A DNA stretch of 64,000 nucleotides from an uncultured virus (IMG/VR IMGVR_UViG_3300028490_000394) (Duplodnaviria > Heunggongvirae > Uroviricota > Caudoviricetes), in IMG/VR virus record IMGVR_UViG_3300028490_000394. One strand, 5' to 3'. Below are positions 2,883 through 61,264 of this stretch, piece after piece (position 1 is the stretch's first letter; each line of letters begins with the position of its first letter). The notes beneath the pieces were generated by a model. That model searched no databases. It saw only the letters and a program-made list of their open reading frames with translations, and was not told the DNA's origin. The translations under genes and the position numbers were made by a program.

Positions 2883-3305
2883 TTAGCTTGATTGAACAGA
2901 ACCGTCAAGACAGCTGTCAAATGATACTGCATTTCCAGAATATGTAGCATTTGCTATTGCAACTGCATAACCAGCTGAACCGTCAGTACATGTTTGAGTA
3001 GTTACTGTAATAGTATTACCTTTAGAGAACGCTGTTCTTACACTTCCGTCTGTACATAGACCATTGTTTACTGTACCTGATTGACCAGTTGCTGCACAAG
3101 TTAAAGCTTGGTATGCTTGAGCATTTGCAAATTCAGTTTGTTGTGCAATGATTGCACCTCTAGCGTCACTCTTCATTGAGTTTACTGTTGCTACTTTTGT
3201 TGAATCATTAAGATTTGCAATTGCAAACCCAGCTAAGATTGAGATAATTGCCATTACGAATAATAGTTCTACTAGGGTAAACCCTTTTTTGATTGTTGAT
3301 TTCAT
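2883..3305 (-). CDS. Type IV pilin-like protein
   Basis: KKG|FTLVE motif; AAGGAGG RBS; two Cys pairs. Confidence 0.92.
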   Translation of the reverse strand: MKSTIKKGFTLVELLFVMAIISILAGFAIANLNDSTKVATVNSMKSDARGAIIAQQTEFANAQAYQALTCAATGQSGTVNNGLCTDGSVRTAFSKGNTITVTTQTCTDGSAGYAVAIANATYSGNAVSFDSCLDGSVQSS

Positions 3306-16804: not shown

Positions 16805-17017
16805 GTTTATAAATCTTAATTTTTTCTTAATTTTTTGTTTTCTGCACGTTTGTGCATGATTACATTGACTCCACTTTTGCTTCTAGCTTTAAAAATGAAT
16901 CTCGGGCGTCTAATATGCTTTTTGCATACATAGTCTCTGCAATATACGTATAATTCAAACTATCATTGAACTAGTATATATTACATAATCCTGTTATACT
17001 AAACAAAAAGGATCCCT

Positions 17018-18040: not shown

Positions 18041-18178
18041 CCTTACAATTTCAAATTATTATTATCCTCCAAGAATTAAGATTTAGAATCTAACGGAATT
18101 ACTTTGAGTTGTGCCTTTGGCACTTCTCAATCTATTAACTAACTTTAAGATTTATTATGTTATAATAATCTTTCATTT

Positions 18179-18250: not shown

Positions 18251-18299
18251 ACCAATTCATTATCTGACTTTAAGGTTTGATATGGTATAATAATTTTAT

Positions 18300-18371
18300 G
18301 GTATCTTCGTCTAGTGGCCAAGGACAGACCCCGCTGGGGGGAAAACGTAGGTTCGAATCCTATAGATATCA
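18300..18371 (+). ncRNA. tRNA-Glu-like RNA with 4-nt anticodon loop
   Basis: GTCTAGTGGCCAAGGAC D-arm; CCCC-GCTG-GGGG; TTCGAAT. Confidence 0.7.
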
Positions 18372-18835: not shown

Positions 18836-18961
18836 GTCGACTTAGCTCAGTGGTAGAGCGCGGTGTGGTCACTGGTTCGAATCCAGTAATATCTAACGGG
18901 TATTTAGCTCAGCGGTAGAGCACGAAGAGGGTCATTGGTTCGAATCCAATAGTTGGCACCA
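18836..18961 (+). ncRNA. Double-elbow tRNA fusion RNA, copy 2
   Basis: Same order of arms as 18547..18686; ends ACCA. Confidence 0.8.
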
Positions 18962-19119
18962 TTTTAACAGCAACCTGTAAGGTTTGTTTTGTTATAATAA
19001 AACTTCAAATGGAATTGATTATTCTATTTGTAAAAATGATTAATTTTTGTAACTTTTTGATCATTGACTAAGCTTTCTGAAAGGACTGTTTAGTTATAAT
19101 ATTAAAGTTCAAAACATAT

Positions 19120-19393: not shown

Positions 19394-19463
19394 GTTAATT
19401 TAGCTGAGTTGGATTAGCTGGCCCACTATGGGTTGTACATTGGTTCGAGTCCAATAGTTAGCA
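19394..19463 (+). ncRNA. tRNA-like RNA with shortened anticodon loop
   Basis: GTTAATT/AGTTAGC acceptor; GGCCCACTATGGGTT; TTCGAGT. Confidence 0.6.
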
Positions 19464-19500
19464 CTTGCTGCAAGATCTTAATTGATCTTCAGCCACCTAT

Positions 19501-19621
19501 AGACAATTAGCTCAGTTGGTAGAGTACTTTGACTCTCAGTAGCAAGTTTTGGCCTTTAAACGCCTTAACCCTACTGATTAAGTCTTAGAGGCCAGTGGTT
19601 CAAATCCACTATTGTCTGCCA
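19501..19621 (+). ncRNA. tRNA-like RNA with ~45-nt insertion in anticodon arm
   Basis: Perfect acceptor AGACAAT/ATTGTCT+GCCA, canonical D and T arms; extended stem TCAGTAG/CTACTGA. Confidence 0.75.
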
Positions 19622-19624
19622 CTA

Positions 19625-19940
19625 ATGTTTCAATTGAGGAGATCTTGTCTCTTGAATTGGGCCATTATGGTTCCAAAACAGTTAGTGTCCAAGCGGGTAA
19701 CCTTATATCAATTGTCCTTCAGTAAAGACTTTTGTTGGTTATATGGGATTAGTGACCCAGAATACACATAATAGAGCGGTGCACACTGAATGTACAGAGG
19801 TTCTCTTACTGTTCCGAACGGGATACCAAAGTAGGAAAAATAGATATAAATGGTGACTTTTAGATTTGGGTCATTAGAAACCGTAGGTAAAACTTGTAGG
19901 TTTACATTTTTATCAAACCTGTCTGTTTCCACACAACAGG
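19625..19940 (+). ncRNA. Putative large structured ncRNA
   Basis: Follows tRNA-like RNA; long-range stems such as TAGTGACCCAGA/TTTGGGTCATTA; higher GC than spacers. Confidence 0.4.
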
Positions 19941-19994
19941 CTTTAAGGTTAGTTATGTTATAATCTTATTATGAAGACGAAAGTTCTTCTTTAT

Positions 19995-20312: not shown

Positions 20313-20318
20313 TTTTAT

Positions 20319-20389
20319 GTTTTTGTAGCTCAGTCCGGCAGAGCGGGCCCTTTAGGGCTGCGTCAATGGTTCGAATCCATTCAAAATCA
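20319..20389 (+). ncRNA. tRNA-like RNA with 4-nt anticodon loop
   Basis: TAGCTCAG D-arm; GGCCC-TTTA-GGGCT; TTCGAAT. Confidence 0.7.
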
Positions 20390-20579
20390 ATTAGACTAAT
20401 ATCCTTGAAGCGCTACCTCGGTAGAAATGCACTATTCGGATAAAAACTTTTGTTTTGTCAATTATAGTTATTAGTCTTTTCTCTATGTCGAAGTAGATTA
20501 CCACGATATCCGGGTTGCTCGATCTAATCGTTCTATCGGTGAGTGTTAAGTTTTGATACTTTTTTCGTCTACCTTTTAT

Positions 20580-20729
20580 GCGGGAGTAGCTCAGTTCGGT
20601 AGAGCGCTAAGATACTTACTTTCTTTTTTATGTCCTACGAATTCTAGGGTCGCATGTAAATCTTAGTAAGAAATGGTTTGATTCCGTTTTCTTAGAGGTC
20701 ACTGGTTCAAATCCAGTCTCCAGGCTCCA
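20580..20729 (+). ncRNA. tRNA-like RNA with ~75-nt insertion in anticodon arm
   Basis: Canonical D and T arms; CTAAGA/TCTTAG stem encloses hairpins including a second T-like arm. Confidence 0.7.
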
Positions 20730-22279: not shown

Positions 22280-22356
22280 ATTATCATTCCTTTATATAGA
22301 CATAAAAATTTTAAAGGAAACTTTAAGTTTTCTTTAGCTATAATCTATTTATCGAT

Positions 22357-27567: not shown

Positions 27568-27645
27568 CGCGGAGTAGAGCAGTTCGGTCAGCTCGCTGGG
27601 TTCATAATCCAGAGGTCATTGGTTCAAATCCAATCTCCGCAACCA
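27568..27645 (+). tRNA. tRNA-fMet(CAT)
   Basis: CGCGGAGTAGAGCAG; CTGGG-TTCATAA-TCCAG; ACCA. Confidence 0.9.
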
Positions 27646-27810
27646 AACTTTAAGGTTATATTCGCTATAATCTATTTAGAAGCTTTCATAATGTGTACAG
27701 ATTGTATGTATTCTGAAGACTTTAAATTTATATAATCCCTAGAAAGGTAATGAGACCTGAGTTTCAGGTTAATGGCTCGCTTGTCATTTTATATTCTTTT
27801 ATTTCTTTTT

Positions 27811-27901: not shown

Positions 27902-27973
27902 GGTTGTGTAGTTTAGTTGGTTAGAGTGCTCCATTATGGAGAGATAGAGGTTCGAATCCTTTTGCAATCGCCA
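27902..27973 (+). ncRNA. tRNA-like RNA with 3-nt anticodon loop
   Basis: CTCCA-TTA-TGGAG; TTCGAAT; GCCA. Confidence 0.72.
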
Positions 27974-27981
27974 AAATTTAT

Positions 27982-28054
27982 GATTGTGTAGCTTAATTGG
28001 TCAGAATGCTCCCCCGAGGGAGTGACGGAGGTTCGAACCCTTCTGCAACCGCCA
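27982..28054 (+). ncRNA. tRNA-like RNA with 4-nt anticodon loop
   Basis: CTCCC-CCGA-GGGAG; TTCGAAC; GCCA; paralog of previous. Confidence 0.72.
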
Positions 28055-28184: not shown

Positions 28185-28262
28185 TTTAGCCTTCTGTAAT
28201 CCTTGTTTGAATGCTTCGATTACACAGATAACACTCTTGTTTGAATGTTATCTGTACTATAT

Positions 28263-28339
28263 GCCTTTATAGCTCAGTTGGTAGAGCAGGGGATTCTAAA
28301 TCCCTTTGTCGCGAGTTCGAGTCTCGTTAAAGTGCACCA
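28263..28339 (+). tRNA. Amber suppressor tRNA(CTA), Phe-like body
   Basis: GGGGA-TTCTAAA-TCCCT (CTA at 28296-28298); canonical D/T arms; bulge in acceptor; ACCA. Confidence 0.82.
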
Positions 28340-28505
28340 TTTATTATTTGGCTCTAAGGATTTTCTGAAATCTTTAAAGGCAAGTAAGCTACTTGCACTT
28401 GATAGTCATTATGTCGAATAGACTTAGCTATCATTATACGTATGCCCTCTGTTATAGCTTTTTGGTTCATGTGACCTTAAGCGTTATTACGGTATACTAT
28501 TTCAT

Positions 28506-28592
28506 GTCTTGTTCGTATAGCGGTTAGTACATACAGTTATCGGTCGCCCCTTTAATTGTACAGCGCAGGTTCAAATCCTGTACAGGACACCC
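28506..28592 (+). ncRNA. tRNA-like RNA with enlarged anticodon arm
   Basis: GTCTTGT/ACAGGAC; TACAGTTA/TAATTGTA stem with ~13-nt loop; TTCAAAT. Confidence 0.65.
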
Positions 28593-28750
28593 TTTTAGCT
28601 AAATGAGGATAGTAGGTTTTATAAGCCTTTGGGCTACACTATACCGAAATCGGGAAAACTGCTAAAAGGATCCCCTCGCATGGGGCACTTTTAACTATGA
28701 ATTGCTTTTCATATGAATAATATGTTATACTAAACAAAAAGGAAACTATA

Positions 28751-28783
28751 ATGACTTAGATTAATAACCACTCACCTCCATAA
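28751..28783 (+). CDS. Minigene M-T-(TAG)-I-N-N-H-S-P-P-TAA
   Basis: TGTTATACT promoter and AAGGA RBS at 7-nt spacing. Confidence 0.6.
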
Positions 28784-28852
28784 TTATATATTTAGAACAA
28801 CTACTTTAAACTAGCTCTATTTAACATATATATACATTAAGGAATTAAACAA

Positions 28853-29764
28853 ATGAAACATTTACAAACACTACAATTAAAACTACAAACTACTGCTTCT
28901 GAAATCAGAACACTTAAAAACAACATTAAAGCTCACCAAAGAAAATATGGTAACGCACCTGACGCTTTTACTCGAGAACTTTTAAAATTAACTACATACT
29001 TTATTAATCACCACATTGCATACACTATTCTTAAAAAGAATGCTGGTCAGTTTGAATATGATTATACTTGGACTATGAAACAAGCTATTTCCACTGGGGC
29101 TATTTCTCATGATAAAGAAAATATGCTGCCACCTCTTAATTACACTAAAATAAAAGATATTATCAAATTTGAGTCTGAAGCTGATAAAGCTTGTGATCCT
29201 ATACTTATTACTAGAAATAGATTAAAAGAGCTTCATGAGGATAATAGACAGTTTAAAATGCACTCTAAGCTTCAAGCTAAAGACAAATCTCATAAAGATA
29301 AAGTTTCTTTAAAAAAGTTTGATCCTCAATTTAAAATGAATCATAGTCAGAGTGACGTTCGTTCATTGAATATTGCTCATACTATCTTTAAACGTACTAA
29401 TGGTAATATTCAATTAGATAGAAAATGGATCCAAGAAAAAATAACTGAATATAAAATAGAAACTCTGCCTTTGATTGAGAATAAGGATCGATATGTTCCT
29501 TATGACTTTATTGCTTCTCATTTGGAGCGTATGGCTAGCATGCAGGAACCTACTAGTTCAGAGGGTACTTATATAGCATATACTATATTTGATCGTTCTG
29601 GTGGTAAGGTTATGTTTACTAAAGAATGGATTGGTGAAAAAATTAGAGAATATAGAATTGGTACTACTCCTTATAATAGTGATATTCCTATTGACGCACC
29701 TTTTGAATCTATTGCTTCTCACCTAAAGAATATGGCACAACAAGCTAAAAAAGAGGAGGCGTAA
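28853..29764 (+). CDS. Hypothetical protein with three IA(Y/H)TI repeats
   Basis: HIAYTILKKNAG, NIAHTIFKRTNG, YIAYTIFDRSGG. Confidence 0.8.
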   Translation: MKHLQTLQLKLQTTASEIRTLKNNIKAHQRKYGNAPDAFTRELLKLTTYFINHHIAYTILKKNAGQFEYDYTWTMKQAISTGAISHDKENMLPPLNYTKIKDIIKFESEADKACDPILITRNRLKELHEDNRQFKMHSKLQAKDKSHKDKVSLKKFDPQFKMNHSQSDVRSLNIAHTIFKRTNGNIQLDRKWIQEKITEYKIETLPLIENKDRYVPYDFIASHLERMASMQEPTSSEGTYIAYTIFDRSGGKVMFTKEWIGEKIREYRIGTTPYNSDIPIDAPFESIASHLKNMAQQAKKEEA

Positions 29765-29766
29765 TT

Positions 29767-30063
29767 ATGAGTAGATTATATTGTATTACTAGATCAGATT
29801 TAACACCCGGGCAGAAAACTGCCCAAGCATGTCATGCAGCGGCTCAATATCTTCTTGATAATCCTGATACTGAATGGGATAATGGTTATATTATTTGTCT
29901 TGAGGCAAAGGACCACGACGCATTGCTTACATTACAAGATAGATTAGAATCTAAAGACAAGTTATTCTCTAAATTCTATGAACCTGATATGGACGACGAG
30001 CTTACTGGGATCGCTGCAGTCGACTGTGGTAAGTCTTTTTCTAATTATAAGCTCCTTCGTTAA
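29767..30063 (+). CDS. Peptidyl-tRNA hydrolase Pth2-like protein
   Basis: RSDL-PGQ-AQACHAA, ICL, F-EPD, LT-IA. Confidence 0.8.
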   Translation: MSRLYCITRSDLTPGQKTAQACHAAAQYLLDNPDTEWDNGYIICLEAKDHDALLTLQDRLESKDKLFSKFYEPDMDDELTGIAAVDCGKSFSNYKLLR

Positions 30064-34930: not shown

Positions 34931-36148
34931 TTAATTTAGTTCTTTCAAGTCAAAATTTACTTGAGTTGATCCTTCTAACCATTTTACCATACATTCTTTT
35001 GTTTCAATCTCTTTATCACCCAAGATTATTACACATTCTGCATTTTCTTTATTTGCATTCTTGATTATTGTACTTGGACCTCTTGATTTGTAATCCAGGA
35101 ATACTCTCGAGTTCTTCATATTTCTATAATACATTGCTAGTTTCATTAACGTTGGTAATGCCGCTTCTGTCATTACTCCTATATAAATCCCTCTTCTTTT
35201 TTCACTTGACTCTAGAGTCATTCTTTCTATCACTCTATCTATTCCAATTGCAAACCCTACTGCAGGTCTTGATTTACCACCCATTTCTTTTACTAGATTA
35301 TCATATCTACCACCACCCGCTATTGCTTGGCCCTTAGATACAACCTCGAAGACTAACCCATTATAATAGTCTAATCCTCTCACTAGTTTATTGTTTACTC
35401 TAAACTTAATTTTTAGTTCATTTAAAATATTTTTTGTACTAGTCAGCATGTCCGAACAACTATCACATAAACATGATTCAATTACTGGGGCCCCTTTTAG
35501 TTGGCTTTGACATGTGTCTCTTTTACAGTCTAGCATTCTTAATACATTTGTTTCTTTTCTAACTTCACAATCTTCACACAATTCTAATTCTTCAGTAAAT
35601 GTTCTTAGTTTTTGCTTATACACTGGTAGACACTCTTTACAACCTAATGAGTTTATCTCTATTCCTACAGGGATATTAAGTCTTTCAAATATCATAGATA
35701 GCATTGTGATCATTTGAACGTCTTCTAGGTATGAGGCCTCACCGAAACTTTCTGCACCGAATTGTCTGAATTCTCTATATCTTCCTTTTTGTGGTTGTTC
35801 ATATCTAAACATTGAACCAAAATAGAATTGTCTTGTAGTGAATGGTTGTCTATCTAGTTTGTTTTGAATATATGAACGAACGACACCTGCAGTGCCCTCT
35901 GGTCTTAGTGCTACTTCTTTTCCACCATTATCTGTAAAATCATACATTTCTTTTGTTACCATATCAGAACTGTCTTCTTGATTTCTATTGAATAGAGCTA
36001 GCTCTTCTAGTATAGGTGTTTGAACTCTTCCAAAATTACACCCAGACATTACTTCTGTTGCAACTTTAATGAAAGTATCAAATTTTGTTGAATTTTCACC
36101 TGTAATATCTTTCATGCCTTTTAAAGTTTGTATTTGTTTCATTTTCAT
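34931..36148 (-). CDS. hisS: Histidine--tRNA ligase
   Basis: KEMY, LRPEGTA, FRYEQPQKGRYREF, LVRGLDYY, GGGRYD. Confidence 0.96.
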   Translation of the reverse strand: MKMKQIQTLKGMKDITGENSTKFDTFIKVATEVMSGCNFGRVQTPILEELALFNRNQEDSSDMVTKEMYDFTDNGGKEVALRPEGTAGVVRSYIQNKLDRQPFTTRQFYFGSMFRYEQPQKGRYREFRQFGAESFGEASYLEDVQMITMLSMIFERLNIPVGIEINSLGCKECLPVYKQKLRTFTEELELCEDCEVRKETNVLRMLDCKRDTCQSQLKGAPVIESCLCDSCSDMLTSTKNILNELKIKFRVNNKLVRGLDYYNGLVFEVVSKGQAIAGGGRYDNLVKEMGGKSRPAVGFAIGIDRVIERMTLESSEKRRGIYIGVMTEAALPTLMKLAMYYRNMKNSRVFLDYKSRGPSTIIKNANKENAECVIILGDKEIETKECMVKWLEGSTQVNFDLKELN

Positions 36149-42319: not shown

Positions 42320-42432
42320 ATTTAATTACTTTCTATGGTATAATGTAATAAAAAGGATATCCCATGAAAATTAATCATGTTAATCATTTAAAAAGTATAG
42401 TAGACACTTCGACTACTCAAAAGGTGTAATCC

Positions 42433-42687
42433 ATGGACTTCTTAGTTATTTGTGTTCTCATTCTATTTATTGCTGTTTTGTCTAGACTCTTCTTTAAGAC
42501 TTTTCTATTCGCTTCTATTATTGGTATTGTCGGGTACATTGCTGTCCCTCAAGATATGAAAAATACTTTAGATAGTTATGTTTCTATTAAAAAGGTTGAA
42601 GGTCTTCTTTCTTCTGGTTTAAGTAGTCTCATGGGTGTATCTAAATCTGCTGCAGTTAAAATTAAAACTGAAACAGATAAACTATAA
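42433..42687 (+). CDS. Small membrane protein
   Basis: Two hydrophobic segments. Confidence 0.65.
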   Translation: MDFLVICVLILFIAVLSRLFFKTFLFASIIGIVGYIAVPQDMKNTLDSYVSIKKVEGLLSSGLSSLMGVSKSAAVKIKTETDKL

Positions 42688-42862
42688 GGAGGTCACATGT
42701 TTAAACAAAATATTCCATTTATCATTGCAATGCTAGTTATAGTTTTTATTATAAGTGTTGTTGGTTTTTTTAGTACTTTGATTCTAGTTGTTATCTTTGG
42801 ACTTTATTCTAAGTTCATTGATTCTTCTCTTTTGAAAAAAATTAGATTTAAGTCTTAATATT

Positions 42863-43057
42863 ATGTTAGTTAATGGACAACCTCTCGAAGACGTTGTAAC
42901 CCCACCTTATGATTTATTCTTTTTATTACTGGGTCTCATGATTAGTTTTATCTTATCTTTTTTTCTTTGGAAATACCAAAATAATAAACGTTTAGAGGCT
43001 GAACGTGAAGAAAAAGTTAAAAAATATTATGAAGATCTCGAAATTATTGACTCTTGA
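42863..43057 (+). CDS. Small membrane protein
   Basis: Single TM plus charged tail. Confidence 0.6.
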   Translation: MLVNGQPLEDVVTPPYDLFFLLLGLMISFILSFFLWKYQNNKRLEAEREEKVKKYYEDLEIIDS

Positions 43058-43263
43058 CAAAATTATTTTTGTCTAACTTTTTGACAAATTATTTTTTGTT
43101 AAACTACTCTAAAGCTTCTTTTTGCTATACTCTAGCAACTTGAGGCTTCTAACTCCCTATTTAATCTTCTTTAAATACACTTATTACCCTCTTTATTGCT
43201 CTTTATGTGTTCTGATTCCTCTTTTCACTTATTGACGCTTATTTCAATACCTAAAGGATCCTT

Positions 43264-49281: not shown

Positions 49282-49920
49282 ATGCCTATATCTAGAACAC
49301 TTATTGAAGCTGCTCGTGAAGAAATGAATTCATTAGATAATATTGATCCTGCTAATTTTGACGCTTATTGGGCAAATGTACTTGGTATTGAAAAAAGACT
49401 TATGGCAGAAGATCCTACTCTTCTTTGGGCTACTTATAAATTCCCTGTATTAACAGGAATAAACAATCCTGGTGGATTAAGATACGTAGAAAGAATTGGG
49501 TATATTAAAACTATTCATTTCTTTTCTAAGAAAGCTCTTATCAAAGGTGTCTTGAATAGCGAAAATATTACTTCTCATGAATACAAGCTCTTGAACCCTG
49601 AAGTTTTACCTTTTGCTGAGCCTGGTTCTAATTTTTACTTAGATACTATCGAACAAGATACTGAGTTCTTTGAAAAAGAACTTATTGCTTCTGAATATAA
49701 TCTGCATGCTCCTGTTACTAAGCAGGTAATCTACGAAGAGTTCTTTATTCTTTTTGAACCAAAAAATGGTAAAGAAATCGTATTTGCCAAACCTGTAGAT
49801 AATAATAAATCTATTGTTTTAACTACTCATTTCTTTTCAGATACATTGGGTATGCGTGAGTTTATTAAATCTCGAACTGCTACAGATTGGAACATTATTT
49901 GTAATCATGAATTATCATAG
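49282..49920 (+). CDS. Hypothetical protein (domain X + domain Y)
   Basis: YWA..DP.LLWA plus FEPKNG. Confidence 0.75.
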   Translation: MPISRTLIEAAREEMNSLDNIDPANFDAYWANVLGIEKRLMAEDPTLLWATYKFPVLTGINNPGGLRYVERIGYIKTIHFFSKKALIKGVLNSENITSHEYKLLNPEVLPFAEPGSNFYLDTIEQDTEFFEKELIASEYNLHAPVTKQVIYEEFFILFEPKNGKEIVFAKPVDNNKSIVLTTHFFSDTLGMREFIKSRTATDWNIICNHELS

Positions 49921-60766: not shown

Positions 60767-61264
60767 TTACCATTGTTTATTTAAGTAAAATCTATTCTTT
60801 TTATTATAAATATAAAACACTTTACTAGGGTCTTTCCCAAATAATGGAAAACAAGTTTTATTTGGTTTAGACTCTATGTCTTCGTCTAACATTAAATACC
60901 TATCTGTTTCAAAATAAGATTTTCCTGCTTTTAATTCACCAAACTCTTGCATTCTACCTATTCTTCCTAAACCAGTATGTCTATCATGCATATATCTATG
61001 AGCTTCGTCACACACTAAAATATGTCCGTCACAATGATTTCCTCCTGTGATCATATTCTTAATATAATCCGCATGCCCTGGACAGTCCATGATCAATATA
61101 GGTTGAGTAAAGGAATTTTCCTCTGTAATAGACTTTACAAAGTCGTCTTCTCCAAATGAAATCCCAGTATGAAAACAAGGTACTCCTGCTCTTGTGCTTG
61201 CTGCTGCTATAGATACCGCAACTTTTTCTCCTATATTCATAATTAATCCTTCTTTAGTTTTCAT
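60767..61264 (-). CDS. Small protein carrying an EF-Tu switch II segment
   Basis: [15 protein letters not shown]...DG.ILV; rest not EF-Tu-like. Confidence 0.7.

What the first reader, a model, noticed from the sequence alone, without database searches (positions are those of the whole stretch)
28263..30063. Amber suppressor tRNA + amber-interrupted Pro-Pro-stop minigene + Pth2-like operon
Seen: a tRNA with CUA anticodon (28263-28339). About 400 bp later, an extended -10 (TGTTATACT) and AAGGA RBS drive ATG ACT TAG ATT AAT AAC CAC TCA CCT CCA TAA (28751-28783): Met-Thr-stop, or on read-through M-T-X-I-N-N-H-S-P-P-stop. It is followed by a repeat protein and a Pth2-like hydrolase. Known: very short minigenes cause peptidyl-tRNA drop-off that Pth must recycle (lambda bar), and Pro-Pro before a stop stalls ribosomes. 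Inference: a leader that senses amber read-through or RF1 status and controls, or makes the substrate for, the Pth2 operon.
Basis: partly seen in the sequence, partly recalled or inferred. Interest (0 to 1): 0.82.

Follow-up and report, generated by a model that had tools for sequence, protein, structure and literature searches.

The report
Amber-codon leader controlling phage Pth2 operon
A ten-codon leader with an in-frame amber stop and a Pro-Pro-stop ending belongs to a conserved family in big phages that sits before a small helical protein, a mini peptidyl-tRNA hydrolase and an amber suppressor tRNA, and probably switches the operon on only when amber stops are being read through.

Summary
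The window holds a tRNA(CUA) at 28263-28339, one of the phage's standard extended -10 promoters with an SD, a uORF at 28751-28783 (Met-Thr-TAG-...-Pro-Pro-TAA), a 303-aa protein and a 98-aa protein with a confident Pth2 fold.

The pattern ATG..TAG..CCN-CCN-stop lies upstream of Pth2-like genes in 21 of 45 related viral loci (16 of 36 clusters), against 0.10 expected from shuffles and 0 of 45 on the reverse strand. Pro-Pro codons vary synonymously, Ile/Val follows the TAG, and TAG and stop are always at least 5 codons apart.

In the predicted folds, a hairpin starting at the Pro-Pro-stop pairs with the SD of the next gene in 19 of 21 leaders, against 52 of 185 control genes. That gene belongs to a new ~100-aa helical family, here called "HIAY". 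The window's 303-aa protein is an expanded member. A suppressor is the tRNA nearest the Pth2-like gene in 40 of the 44 such loci that hold any tRNA.

A second clade builds the same dependence differently: 68 of 81 Pth2-like genes start ATG + 0-3 codons + TAG.

Best reading: an ermC/cat-type translational attenuator whose inducer is amber suppression. The mechanism is inferred, and the window's own hairpin is weak. I found no description of it in four literature searches.

The parts
28263..28339 (+). amber suppressor tRNA (anticodon CUA) with encoded CCA
   Evidence: ARAGORN. Rfam RF00005 58.1 bits. Most similar (75%) to the cassette tRNA of locus L158.
28505..28592 (+). aberrant tRNA-like element: 7-bp anticodon stem, about 13-nt loop, no CCA
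   Evidence: Found by ARAGORN only with the intron option. T-arm repeat family D4. Not reported by Rfam at E<=5. Its role in the system is unknown.
28723..28731 (+). extended -10 promoter element TGTTATACT
   Evidence: Member of a window-wide family of 36 sites. A 21-nt stretch covering the promoter and SD is identical to the one at 16992 that drives ORF 17018.
28739..28743 (+). Shine-Dalgarno AAGGA of the leader ORF, 7 nt before the ATG
   Evidence: Read. AGGA-N4-9-ATG opens ORFs of 60 codons or more at 71 of 98 sites in the window.
28751..28783 (+). leader ORF: Met-Thr-TAG-Ile-Asn-Asn-His-Ser-Pro-Pro-TAA
   Evidence: It fits the family consensus: TAG at codon 3, Ile after the TAG, 7 codons between TAG and stop (family minimum 5), Pro-Pro-stop, and 69 nt to the next gene (family mostly 43-77).
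28757..28759 (+). in-frame amber codon followed by A, the proposed sensing codon
   Evidence: The residue after the last TAG is Ile or Val in 26 of 27 family leaders.
28775..28783 (+). Pro-Pro-stop (CCT CCA TAA), the proposed stall site
   Evidence: 11 different Pro-Pro codon pairs occur across the family.
28777..28843 (+). predicted hairpin: 5' arm 28777-28796 starts in the Pro-Pro codons, 3' arm 28820-28843 covers the SD AAGGA (28839-28843) of the next gene
   Evidence: ViennaRNA MFE -6.9 kcal/mol, z -0.5, which is weak. Stronger hairpins with the same topology occur in 19 of 21 leaders.
28853..29764 (+). 303-aa 'HIAY'-family protein (N-terminal module plus two extra repeats), function unknown
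   Evidence: hhalign against the family profile A8: probability 86.8%, E 4e-6, residues 5-61. No Pfam match. No relatives by word search.
29767..30063 (+). 98-aa mini-Pth2-like protein (predicted peptidyl-tRNA hydrolase fold)

Best explanation
The window carries one copy of a conserved phage cassette: a leader ORF, a HIAY-family protein, a mini-Pth2 and an amber suppressor tRNA. The leader has the form Met-x-TAG-(Ile/Val)-x(2-9)-Pro-Pro-stop. In the window the tRNA lies about 400 nt upstream of the promoter rather than just after the Pth2 gene.

Proposed mechanism (inferred). The leader is translated from its own SD. Without amber suppression the ribosome terminates at the TAG at codon 3, at least 5 codons short of the hairpin. 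The hairpin stays closed and hides the SD of the HIAY gene, so HIAY and the translationally coupled Pth2 are not made. When the suppressor tRNA reads the TAG, the ribosome runs on to Pro-Pro-stop. Termination there is slow, and the paused ribosome melts the 5' arm of the hairpin, which frees the SD. This is an ermC/cat-type translational attenuator whose inducer is amber-suppression activity.

The Pth2-like enzyme would then be made only while stops are being read through, presumably to recycle tRNAs from peptidyl-tRNA dropped at contested UAG codons. That last step is the weakest inference.
For: 1. The pattern is conserved. It occurs in 21 of 45 clade-A upstream regions against 0.10 expected from shuffles, 0 of 45 on the reverse complement, and in 16 of 36 clusters at 70% identity. 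Most copies lie 340-451 nt before the Pth2 start.

2. The signals point to a translated frame. There are 11 different Pro-Pro codon pairs. The residue after the last TAG is Val in 14, Ile in 12 and Asn in 1 of 27. TAG and stop are 5 to 12 codons apart and never fewer than 5. The first TAG is at codon 3 in 17 of 27. An SD-like purine run lies just upstream of the listed leaders.

3. In the MFE fold, at least 5 of the 12 nt in the SD window of the next gene pair with the 39 nt starting at the first Pro codon in 19 of 21 leaders. The figure for control genes from the same loci is 52 of 185 (Fisher p 3e-8).

4. The next gene is the HIAY family. It overlaps the Pth2 start or is fused to Pth2 in 5 loci (L169, L171, L172, L175, L180).

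5. A suppressor tRNA is present in 43 of 49 clade-A loci and is the nearest tRNA in 40 of the 44 loci that hold any tRNA. It is usually right after the Pth2 stop. Whole genomes hold few suppressors: 2 of 33 tRNAs in Lak-B7 and 1 of 34 in ScoobyDoobyDoo. In each, a suppressor lies within 600 nt of the Pth2-like gene and far from the main tRNA array.

6. A second clade reaches the same dependence another way. 68 of 81 Pth2-like genes start ATG + 0-3 codons + TAG, and a purine follows the TAG in 68 of 68. This holds in 30 of 40 clusters. The same start occurs in 40 of 1054 other frames.

7. The window's leader sits at a canonical promoter and SD.
Against: - The window's own hairpin is weak and no better than shuffles (-6.9 kcal/mol, z -0.5).
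- No gene in the 64 kb visibly needs TAG read-through. 30 of 107 ORFs of 100 aa or more end in TAG. The two TAG-joined frame pairs I read (49918 and 36755) are separate genes with their own start signals. No early-TAG gene was found. Whether this phage suppresses TAG at all is therefore not shown.
- The closest relative with upstream sequence, L014 (64% identical Pth2), has a 6-codon uORF with neither an in-frame TAG nor Pro-Pro, in front of a different gene, and no suppressor tRNA in view.
- 24 of 45 clade-A loci lack the exact pattern, and only 3 clear variants were seen among them.
- SD pairing is common in controls too (28%).
- Three leaders lie so close to the next start (gaps of 2, 6 and 14 nt) that a stalled ribosome would cover it.
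- There are no expression, toeprint or activity data.
- The Lys that I recall as catalytic in archaeal Pth2 is not conserved in this family.
Confidence: 0.6

Rival explanations
1. The leader works as a bar-like minigene. With TAG read as a stop, the two-codon ORF (Met-Thr-stop) sheds fMet-Thr-tRNA. This loads or titrates Pth activity, so the leader makes the substrate of the operon's enzyme or regulates through drop-off rather than through read-through.
For: The leader has a strong promoter and SD, and the stop comes at codon 3. The operon encodes a Pth2-fold protein. Clade-B Pth2 genes also carry a TAG at codons 2-5. From recall, very short ORFs are known to favour peptidyl-tRNA drop-off (lambda bar).
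Against: The frame behind the TAG is conserved through to Pro-Pro-stop, with synonymous Pro codons and a minimum spacing of 5 codons. That conservation is pointless if translation always ends at the TAG. The codon before the TAG is not conserved. A purine follows the TAG in 68 of 68 clade-B starts, and from recall this context favours suppression.
Confidence: 0.12
2. The same leader acts mainly on transcription, or with opposite polarity. Either ribosome position controls a terminator or Rho access, as in trp/tna-type attenuation, or the stalled ribosome blocks the next start rather than opening it.
For: In L004 and L009 the hairpin behind the Pro-Pro-stop is followed by a U-rich run about 35 nt before the Pth2 start. 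In L073 I saw the uORF but did not read the sequence behind it. In three clade-A leaders the gap to the next start is only 2-14 nt. In most relatives the suppressor tRNA lies downstream in the same orientation, so transcriptional control would also set the tRNA level.
Against: In most clade-A loci the 3' arm of the hairpin is the SD, or the SD plus AUG, and has no U-run. In the window the tRNA is upstream of the promoter.
Confidence: 0.15
3. The window's uORF is a chance or vestigial short frame in a 5' leader, for example the stump of an older Pth2 gene start, and has no regulatory role in this phage.
For: - Its first seven codons match the start of several clade-B Pth2-like genes (L113 and L128).
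- Stumps of Pth2 5' ends next to endonuclease-like ORFs exist in L128 and L135.
- The local hairpin is weak.
- No TAG read-through is needed elsewhere in the window.
- The motif ATG(N3)0-3TAGATTAA is expected about 0.9 times in 128 kb by chance.
Against: The uORF meets every family feature at once: its own SD, TAG at codon 3, Ile after the TAG, Pro-Pro-stop, spacing, gap, then a HIAY gene, then Pth2. The full pattern occurs once in the window and in 5 of 2000 shuffles.
Confidence: 0.08
4. The conserved letters mark an RNA or DNA element rather than a translated frame, or the uORF encodes a functional micropeptide.
For: CCUCC is complementary to SD sequences. In 6 of the 23 listed leaders the Pro pair is CCTCCT.
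Against: 17 of the 23 listed leaders use other Pro-Pro codon pairs, including CCGCCG, CCACCC and CCCCCA. The frame is kept across lengths of 7-22 codons. The interior residues are too variable for a micropeptide. No Rfam family matches at E<=5.
Confidence: 0.05

Closest known systems
Leader-peptide translational attenuators of resistance genes (ermC, cat-86, cmlA leaders; recalled)
   Same: A short ORF with its own SD precedes the regulated gene. A hairpin hides the SD of the downstream gene. A ribosome paused at a fixed place in the leader opens the hairpin.
   Different: In those systems the inducer is an antibiotic bound to the ribosome. Here the proposed inducer is read-through of an in-frame amber codon, and the pause site is Pro-Pro-stop.
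prfB (RF2) autoregulatory frameshift and the tnaC leader (recalled)
   Same: Both are natural devices that read out how well a stop codon is terminated. prfB uses an in-frame UGA. tnaC stalls at a Pro-stop where release is inhibited.
   Different: prfB uses a +1 frameshift inside the gene and senses the release factor. Here a separate leader would sense a suppressor tRNA, or the tRNA/RF1 balance, and acts through an SD hairpin.
Engineered amber codons in attenuator leaders for control by unnatural amino acids (synthetic biology; the review PMC6412442 was seen only as a search listing and abstract; details recalled)
   Same: An amber codon in a leader peptide makes downstream expression depend on suppression.
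   Different: Those are man-made. This would be a natural family found across many phage lineages.
Lambda bar minigenes (recalled)
   Same: A two-codon ORF behind a strong SD, with a link to peptidyl-tRNA hydrolase.
   Different: bar ORFs really end after two codons and are toxic when Pth is low. Here the frame behind the stop is conserved.
PTH2 genes of jumbo phages and of mycobacteriophage tRNA arrays (PMC7824862 and PMC5966550; passages read)
   Same: A Pth2-type hydrolase encoded by large phages, sometimes inside tRNA arrays, and proposed to help ribosome rescue.
   Different: Neither paper mentions suppressor tRNAs (0 occurrences of 'suppressor' in each). Neither describes an amber-containing leader, early in-frame TAGs or the HIAY partner.
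RAPP / SecM-type arrest peptides (recalled)
   Same: The C-terminal motif Arg-x-Pro-Pro or Arg-Pro-Pro. 8 of 27 leaders have Arg directly before Pro-Pro.
   Different: Arrest in those peptides happens during elongation and needs longer nascent chains. Here the peptides are mostly 7-12 residues, the Pro-Pro is directly followed by a stop, and the window has Ser-Pro-Pro.

Membership tests
Pth2 peptidyl-tRNA hydrolase (PF01981), for ORF 29767-30063 | Sequence match to the Pfam model above its gathering score | tested here: not met
   20.9 bits against a cut-off of 23, E 4e-4. Among relatives, 49 of 79 match at E<=0.01, best 2e-10. 5 of 6 close relatives carry a precomputed PF01981 hit.
Pth2 peptidyl-tRNA hydrolase (PF01981), for ORF 29767-30063 | Pth2 alpha/beta fold | tested here: met
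   Model pLDDT 97.3. 12 of the top 13 Foldseek PDB rows are Pth2-family entries (2zv3, 3erj, 1q7s, 1xty, 1wn2, 1rlk), most with TM 0.7-0.8. The other row is 2gax, of unknown function.
Pth2 peptidyl-tRNA hydrolase (PF01981), for ORF 29767-30063 | Catalytic Lys and Asp (recalled from archaeal Pth2 studies) | tested here: inconclusive
   The window protein has K17 and D74. Across the family D74, E72, P73, H23, Q20 and T80 are nearly invariant, but the Lys position varies (K/Q/G/R).
Pth2 peptidyl-tRNA hydrolase (PF01981), for ORF 29767-30063 | Hydrolysis of N-blocked aminoacyl-tRNA | not testable with these tools
   Needs an enzyme assay.
Leader-peptide translational attenuator (ermC/cat type) | Short ORF with its own SD directly upstream of the regulated gene | tested here: met
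   Window: AAGGA 7 nt before the ATG, 69 nt to the next gene. Family: an SD-like run lies before the listed leaders, and gaps are mostly 43-77 nt.
Leader-peptide translational attenuator (ermC/cat type) | Hairpin that hides the downstream SD, with its 5' arm within reach of the paused ribosome | tested here: inconclusive
   Family: 19 of 21 leaders against 52 of 185 controls, p 3e-8. The window has the same topology but only -6.9 kcal/mol, z -0.5. These are MFE predictions only, with no covariation test.
Leader-peptide translational attenuator (ermC/cat type) | Programmed ribosome pause in the leader that depends on the inducer | not testable with these tools
   Pro-Pro-stop and the upstream TAG are conserved. 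Stalling itself needs toeprinting or profiling.
Lambda bar-type minigene | ORF that truly ends after 2-3 codons | tested here: not met
   The frame behind the TAG is conserved through to Pro-Pro-stop with synonymous changes.
Amber suppressor tRNA | Cloverleaf with a 7-nt anticodon loop, U33 and anticodon CUA | tested here: met
   Rfam 58.1 bits, loop UUCUAAA. ARAGORN. The acceptor stem has one bulged base.
Amber suppressor tRNA | Charged in the host and active in suppression | not testable with these tools
   No gene in the window needs TAG read-through. The rest of the 431-kb contig (length) was not available.
HIAY family (defined here), for ORF 28853-29764 | N-terminal helix followed by the R-H-x-H-I-A-Y motif, placed between the leader and Pth2 | tested here: met
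   hhalign against profile A8: probability 86.8%, E 4e-6. The position in the operon is the same. The family has no Pfam match. Its model (pLDDT 89.6) has no PDB fold match.

The most novel reading that the evidence does not exclude
Large phages carry a sensor of the state of the genetic code. It is a family of leader peptides in which an in-frame amber codon followed by a Pro-Pro-stop arrest site turns amber-suppression efficiency into expression of a tRNA-linked module (HIAY protein plus mini-Pth2). Where the suppressor tRNA is co-transcribed, the sensor may also set the level of the suppressor itself. Together with the 'TAG at codon 2-5' starts of clade-B Pth2 and HD-like genes, this would be part of the circuitry that switches or stabilises stop-codon recoding during infection.
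Probability: 0.45. Interest if true: 0.92.

Novelty: new variant of a known kind. Interest (0 to 1): 0.86.

Why it matters
How recoded phages time and control the change from the host's code to their own is an open question. Published surveys point to suppressor tRNAs and release factors but give no sensing device. A natural leader peptide that reads out amber suppression would be the first such sensor. It would make the question directly testable with simple reporters, and it offers a compact natural part for genetic-code engineering. It also links a phage Pth2-type enzyme and an unknown helical protein family specifically to suppressor tRNAs. Earlier work noted Pth2 only as a general translation or RNA-repair accessory.

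Tried and rejected
- Whole genome of the window: none is held, so I could not check TAG use in the late genes of the 431-kb contig.
- Close relatives of the 303-aa protein: none in viral contigs, and only the window's own copy in the protein collection.
- Exact match of the tRNA in viral contigs: none.
- DNA search against named phages: only tRNA-level hits.
- Alignment of the window leader with the L014 leader: no meaningful similarity.
With A1 in viral contigs it returned only 1 locus.
- Sequencing runs: no RNA holder was listed.
- Protein atlas for the 303-aa protein: no usable hit.
- Foldseek for the HIAY model: no match with E<=0.001.
- Pfam for HIAY and for the HD-like neighbour family: nothing.
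- Complex prediction of HIAY with Pth2 (L166 pair): no verdict, score 0.08 against a mark of 0.32.
- Earlier findings of the scan: nothing on this genome or topic.
- TAG as a global sense codon in the window: rejected.
- Pro-Pro as a mere anti-SD nucleotide motif: rejected because 11 different codon pairs are used.
- My first SD-pairing control was too loose (120 of 214). I replaced it with a position-matched control.
- Genome-contig scan: only 3 loci, all in MAG bins, one on a 427-kb contig that may be a mis-binned phage.
- Supplements of the papers were not opened.
Full report
**1. The observation**

The window is AT-rich (32% G+C) and is part of a 431,381-bp contig. It has the gene content of a huge phage: HisRS, many pilin-like proteins and two tRNA arrays.

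- The tRNA with anticodon CUA is real. ARAGORN places it at 28262-28335 and Rfam at 28263-28336 with 58.1 bits. The anticodon loop is UUCUAAA, CCA is encoded, and the acceptor stem has one bulged base.
- A second, weaker tRNA(CUA) lies at 19394-19464.
- The short ORF at 28751-28783 reads exactly as the finder wrote it.
- The promoter is one of 36 TGNTAYAMT sites in the window. 19 of them have an SD and a start codon within 60 nt, and 15 of those 19 open ORFs of 65 codons or more. The site at 28723 is the only one that opens a two-codon frame.
- The 21 bases that cover this promoter and SD are identical to those before ORF 17018. The short ORF therefore sits exactly where this phage starts genes.

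**2. TAG in the window**

TAG behaves as an ordinary stop here. 30 of 107 ORFs of 100 aa or more end in TAG. Seven pairs of frames are joined by a TAG. The two I read, at 49918 and 36755, are separate genes with their own SD or promoter. No real gene starts with an early TAG. No whole genome was available, so the late genes could not be checked.

**3. The downstream genes**

The 98-aa ORF scores below the Pfam PTH2 cut-off (20.9 against 23 bits), but the family evidence is good.

- Its close relatives (63-76% identity) mostly carry PF01981.
- A profile search finds 1892 cluster representatives, most of those listed about 95-110 aa long.
- 49 of 79 aligned members match PTH2 at E<=0.01.
- The AlphaFold model (pLDDT 97.3) matches solved Pth2 structures in 12 of the top 13 Foldseek rows.

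Nearly invariant positions are Q20, H23, E72, P73, D74 and T80. The Lys that I recall as catalytic in archaeal Pth2 is present in the window protein (K17) but is not conserved across the family.

The 303-aa protein has no Pfam match and no close relatives.

**4. Link to suppressor tRNAs**

Homologues of the 98-aa protein in named phages and metagenome contigs sit next to suppressor tRNAs. 13 of the first 28 loci have a tRNA with anticodon CUA or UUA on the same strand within 2.6 kb.

Whole-record scans show how specific this is.

- Lak-B7 has 33 tRNAs and 2 suppressors. One of the two lies 585 nt before the Pth2-like gene, about 200 kb from the main array.
- ScoobyDoobyDoo has 34 tRNAs and 1 suppressor. 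It lies 232 nt after the gene annotated as peptidyl tRNA hydrolase, 60 kb from the main array.

In larger samples from IMG/VR:

- Window-like clade: the tRNA nearest the Pth2-like gene is a suppressor in 40 of the 44 loci that hold any tRNA. 43 of 49 loci hold a suppressor, in 31 of 37 clusters.
- Second clade: the nearest tRNA is a suppressor in 41 of 64 loci.

Papers note PTH2 in jumbo phages (PMC7824862, passages) and in tRNA arrays of cluster C mycobacteriophages (PMC5966550, passages). Neither contains the word 'suppressor'.

**5.

I searched for ATG, 0-8 codons, TAG, 0-14 codons, CCN-CCN-stop, with no TAA or TGA inside, upstream of Pth2-like genes.

- In the first set the pattern appeared in 4 of 27 upstream regions: the window, L004, L009 and L025. 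It appeared once in the whole window on both strands and in 5 of 2000 shuffles.
- In 49 window-like loci from IMG/VR it appeared in 21 of the 45 regions with at least 600 nt upstream. Shuffles predict 0.10. The reverse complement gave 0 of 45. The hits fall in 16 of 36 clusters at 70% identity.
- Most hits lie 340-451 nt before the Pth2 start.
- The 7 hits found downstream of Pth2 are all in front of a 106-111-aa gene that by its sequence looks HIAY-like, in two second-clade lineages.

The 27 distinct leader peptides share little beyond these features:

- Met, then a TAG at codon 3 in 17 of 27 (range codon 2 to 9).
- Ile or Val after the last TAG in 26 of 27.
- At least 5 codons between TAG and stop: 5 in 11 leaders, 6 in 8, 7 in 4, more in 4.
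- A basic residue or His before Pro-Pro in 18 of 27.
- Pro-Pro, then the stop.

The Pro-Pro codons come in 11 different pairs and an SD-like run precedes the listed leaders. This is the signature of a translated frame that runs through the TAG. It is not the signature of a nucleotide motif or of an ORF that ends at the TAG. The window's leader fits every point: TAG at codon 3, Ile after it, 7 codons to the stop, and 69 nt to the next gene.

**6. The hairpin**

MFE folds run from the leader's ATG to the next start. In most loci they show a hairpin whose 5' arm begins in or just after the Pro-Pro-stop and whose 3' arm contains the SD, often with the AUG, of the next gene.

Scored blindly, at least 5 of the 12 SD-window bases pair with the 39 nt starting at the first Pro codon in 19 of 21 leaders. 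In position-matched controls from other genes of the same loci the figure is 52 of 185 (Fisher p 3e-8). An earlier, looser control was uninformative.

In the window the same topology is predicted (28777-28796 pairing with 28820-28843, including AAGGA at 28839-28843). It is only -6.9 kcal/mol and no better than shuffles (z -0.5).

In L004 and L009 the hairpin is followed by a U-rich run, so a transcriptional version is possible.

**7. The gene behind the leader**

The next gene is a new family of about 100 aa that I call HIAY after its motif (alignment).

- It has no Pfam match.
- Its model is a confident helical structure with three long helices (pLDDT 89.6) and no PDB fold match.
- It overlaps the Pth2 start, or is fused to Pth2 in 5 loci (L169, L171, L172, L175, L180).
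- The window's 303-aa protein matches the family profile (probability 86.8%, E 4e-6) and adds two extra repeats.
- The 108-aa protein of L014 also matches (95%).

**8. A second implementation**

In the clade of LR7565xx-type huge phages, 68 of 81 Pth2-like genes begin ATG + 0-3 codons + TAG. A purine follows the TAG in 68 of 68, and the next codon is ATT in 38. This holds in 30 of 40 clusters.

Only 40 of 1054 other frames in the same loci have such a start. Several of the sixteen I translated belong to an HD-like family of about 195 aa. By sequence reading, that family is fused to the Pth2 domain in Xoo-sp13 and pT24 (Pfam confirms only the PTH2 domain there).

The window's leader shares its first seven codons with some of these gene starts (L113, L128). 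Two different devices therefore make Pth2 synthesis depend on reading TAG.

**9. Mechanism**

Shown here:
- the conserved cassette;
- the coding signature of the leader;
- the association with suppressor tRNAs;
- the predicted SD hairpin.

Inferred:
- termination at the TAG leaves the hairpin closed;
- suppression carries the ribosome to Pro-Pro-stop, where slow termination (recalled from work on C-terminal prolines) holds it over the 5' arm and opens the SD;
- the Pth2-like enzyme is needed when stops are contested.

This works like an ermC/cat leader with a new inducer. Rivals are a bar-like minigene, a transcriptional or opposite-polarity version, a vestigial stump in this particular phage, and an RNA motif or micropeptide.

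**10. Points against**

- The window's hairpin is weak.
- There is no sign that TAG is read through anywhere in the 64 kb.
- The closest relative with upstream sequence (L014) has a uORF without an in-frame TAG or Pro-Pro and no suppressor tRNA in view.
- 24 of 45 clade-A loci lack the exact pattern.
- There are no experimental data.

**11. Novelty**

Four full-text searches found no natural amber-sensing leader. In the main preprint on phage stop-codon recoding, a term search found 0 occurrences of 'hydrolase' and 'leader'. Only engineered counterparts turned up (PMC6412442, seen as a listing and abstract). Supplements were not opened.

Noticed in passing
window 27902-27973, 27982-28054, 28505-28592; also 20318-20390, 19501-19618, 20580-20725: tRNA-like genes with abnormal anticodon arms. 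Two have a 3-5-nt or CCGA loop in place of the 7-nt anticodon loop and encode CCA. One has a 7-bp stem with a loop of about 13 nt. Two Rfam tRNA hits are 118 and 146 nt long, as if they carried insertions. They cannot decode normally and their role is unknown.
   Followed up: partly
L023 4851-5091, L024 264-337, L026 434-511, L027 158-572, L028 343-421: In high-GC phage contigs the Pth2-like gene is preceded within 100-750 nt by tRNA-like genes. Their anticodon arm ends in a UUCG/UCCG tetraloop or a 6-, 8- or 9-nt loop, and all encode CCA. The mini-Pth2 seems linked to non-standard tRNAs in general, not only to suppressors.
   Followed up: partly
L066-L145 (Pth2-like starts) and neighbouring genes, e.g. 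L069 3960-4544, L091 2394-2990: A start motif of ATG + 0-3 codons + TAG + ATT/GTN also heads an HD-like family of about 195 aa next to Pth2. By sequence reading, that family is fused to the Pth2 domain in Xanthomonas phage Xoo-sp13 (L010) and Tenacibaculum phage pT24 (L002). The family has no Pfam match.
   Followed up: partly
L134 about 2960-3010; L001, L005, L006, L008, L121: Some phages pair the Pth2-like gene with a tRNA(UUA). This holds for the Lak phages, LR745208, L121 and L134. In L134 the gene has an in-frame TAA at codon 5 with the tRNA(UUA) 137 nt upstream, an ochre version of the same arrangement.
   Followed up: no
L007 5094: The Pth2-like gene of LR756501 has a mid-gene in-frame TAG at a position where relatives have Asp/Glu. 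Two tRNA(CUA) genes lie 2.2 kb downstream, far from the main tRNA arrays.
   Followed up: partly
L128 1709-2452; L135 2169-2969: The first 25 or so codons of a Pth2-like gene, including the early TAG, run in frame into a C-terminal region that by eye looks like an HNH-type or zinc-finger endonuclease (not checked against any family library). This lies just upstream of a complete Pth2-like gene and looks like a homing-endonuclease invasion that duplicated the target's 5' end.
   Followed up: no
window 18128-18175, 18253-18300, 18960-19007, 19938-19971, 22318-22351, 27645-27678: Repeated promoter-like units (CTTTAAG, about 12 nt, then TGNTATAAT) lie in front of tRNA genes (repeat families D11 and D13). 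This suggests a distinct upstream element for the tRNA promoters.
   Followed up: no
window 42336-43263: A canonical promoter plus SD opens only a 21-codon ORF. It is followed by about 900 nt with no ORF of 90 aa or more before the Na+/H+ exchanger gene. This could be another leader or an RNA gene.
   Followed up: no
window 19394-19464: The second tRNA(CUA) has a low score (34.1 bits) and A instead of U before the anticodon. It may not be functional.
   Followed up: partly
window 60767-61264 (-), 34931-36148 (-): A 165-aa ORF matches only a 39-residue piece of the EF-Tu GTP-binding domain. A full HisRS gene lies nearby. These are further translation-related cargo.
   Followed up: no
L195 (427-kb contig in a MAG labelled Thermoplasmatota), L196: The few 'cellular' hits for the mini-Pth2 are MAG contigs that carry the phage arrangement, with a tRNA(CUA) 323-340 nt after the Pth2 start. 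L196 also has an early TAG and a TAG/Pro-Pro leader downstream. These are probably mis-binned phage contigs.
   Followed up: partly
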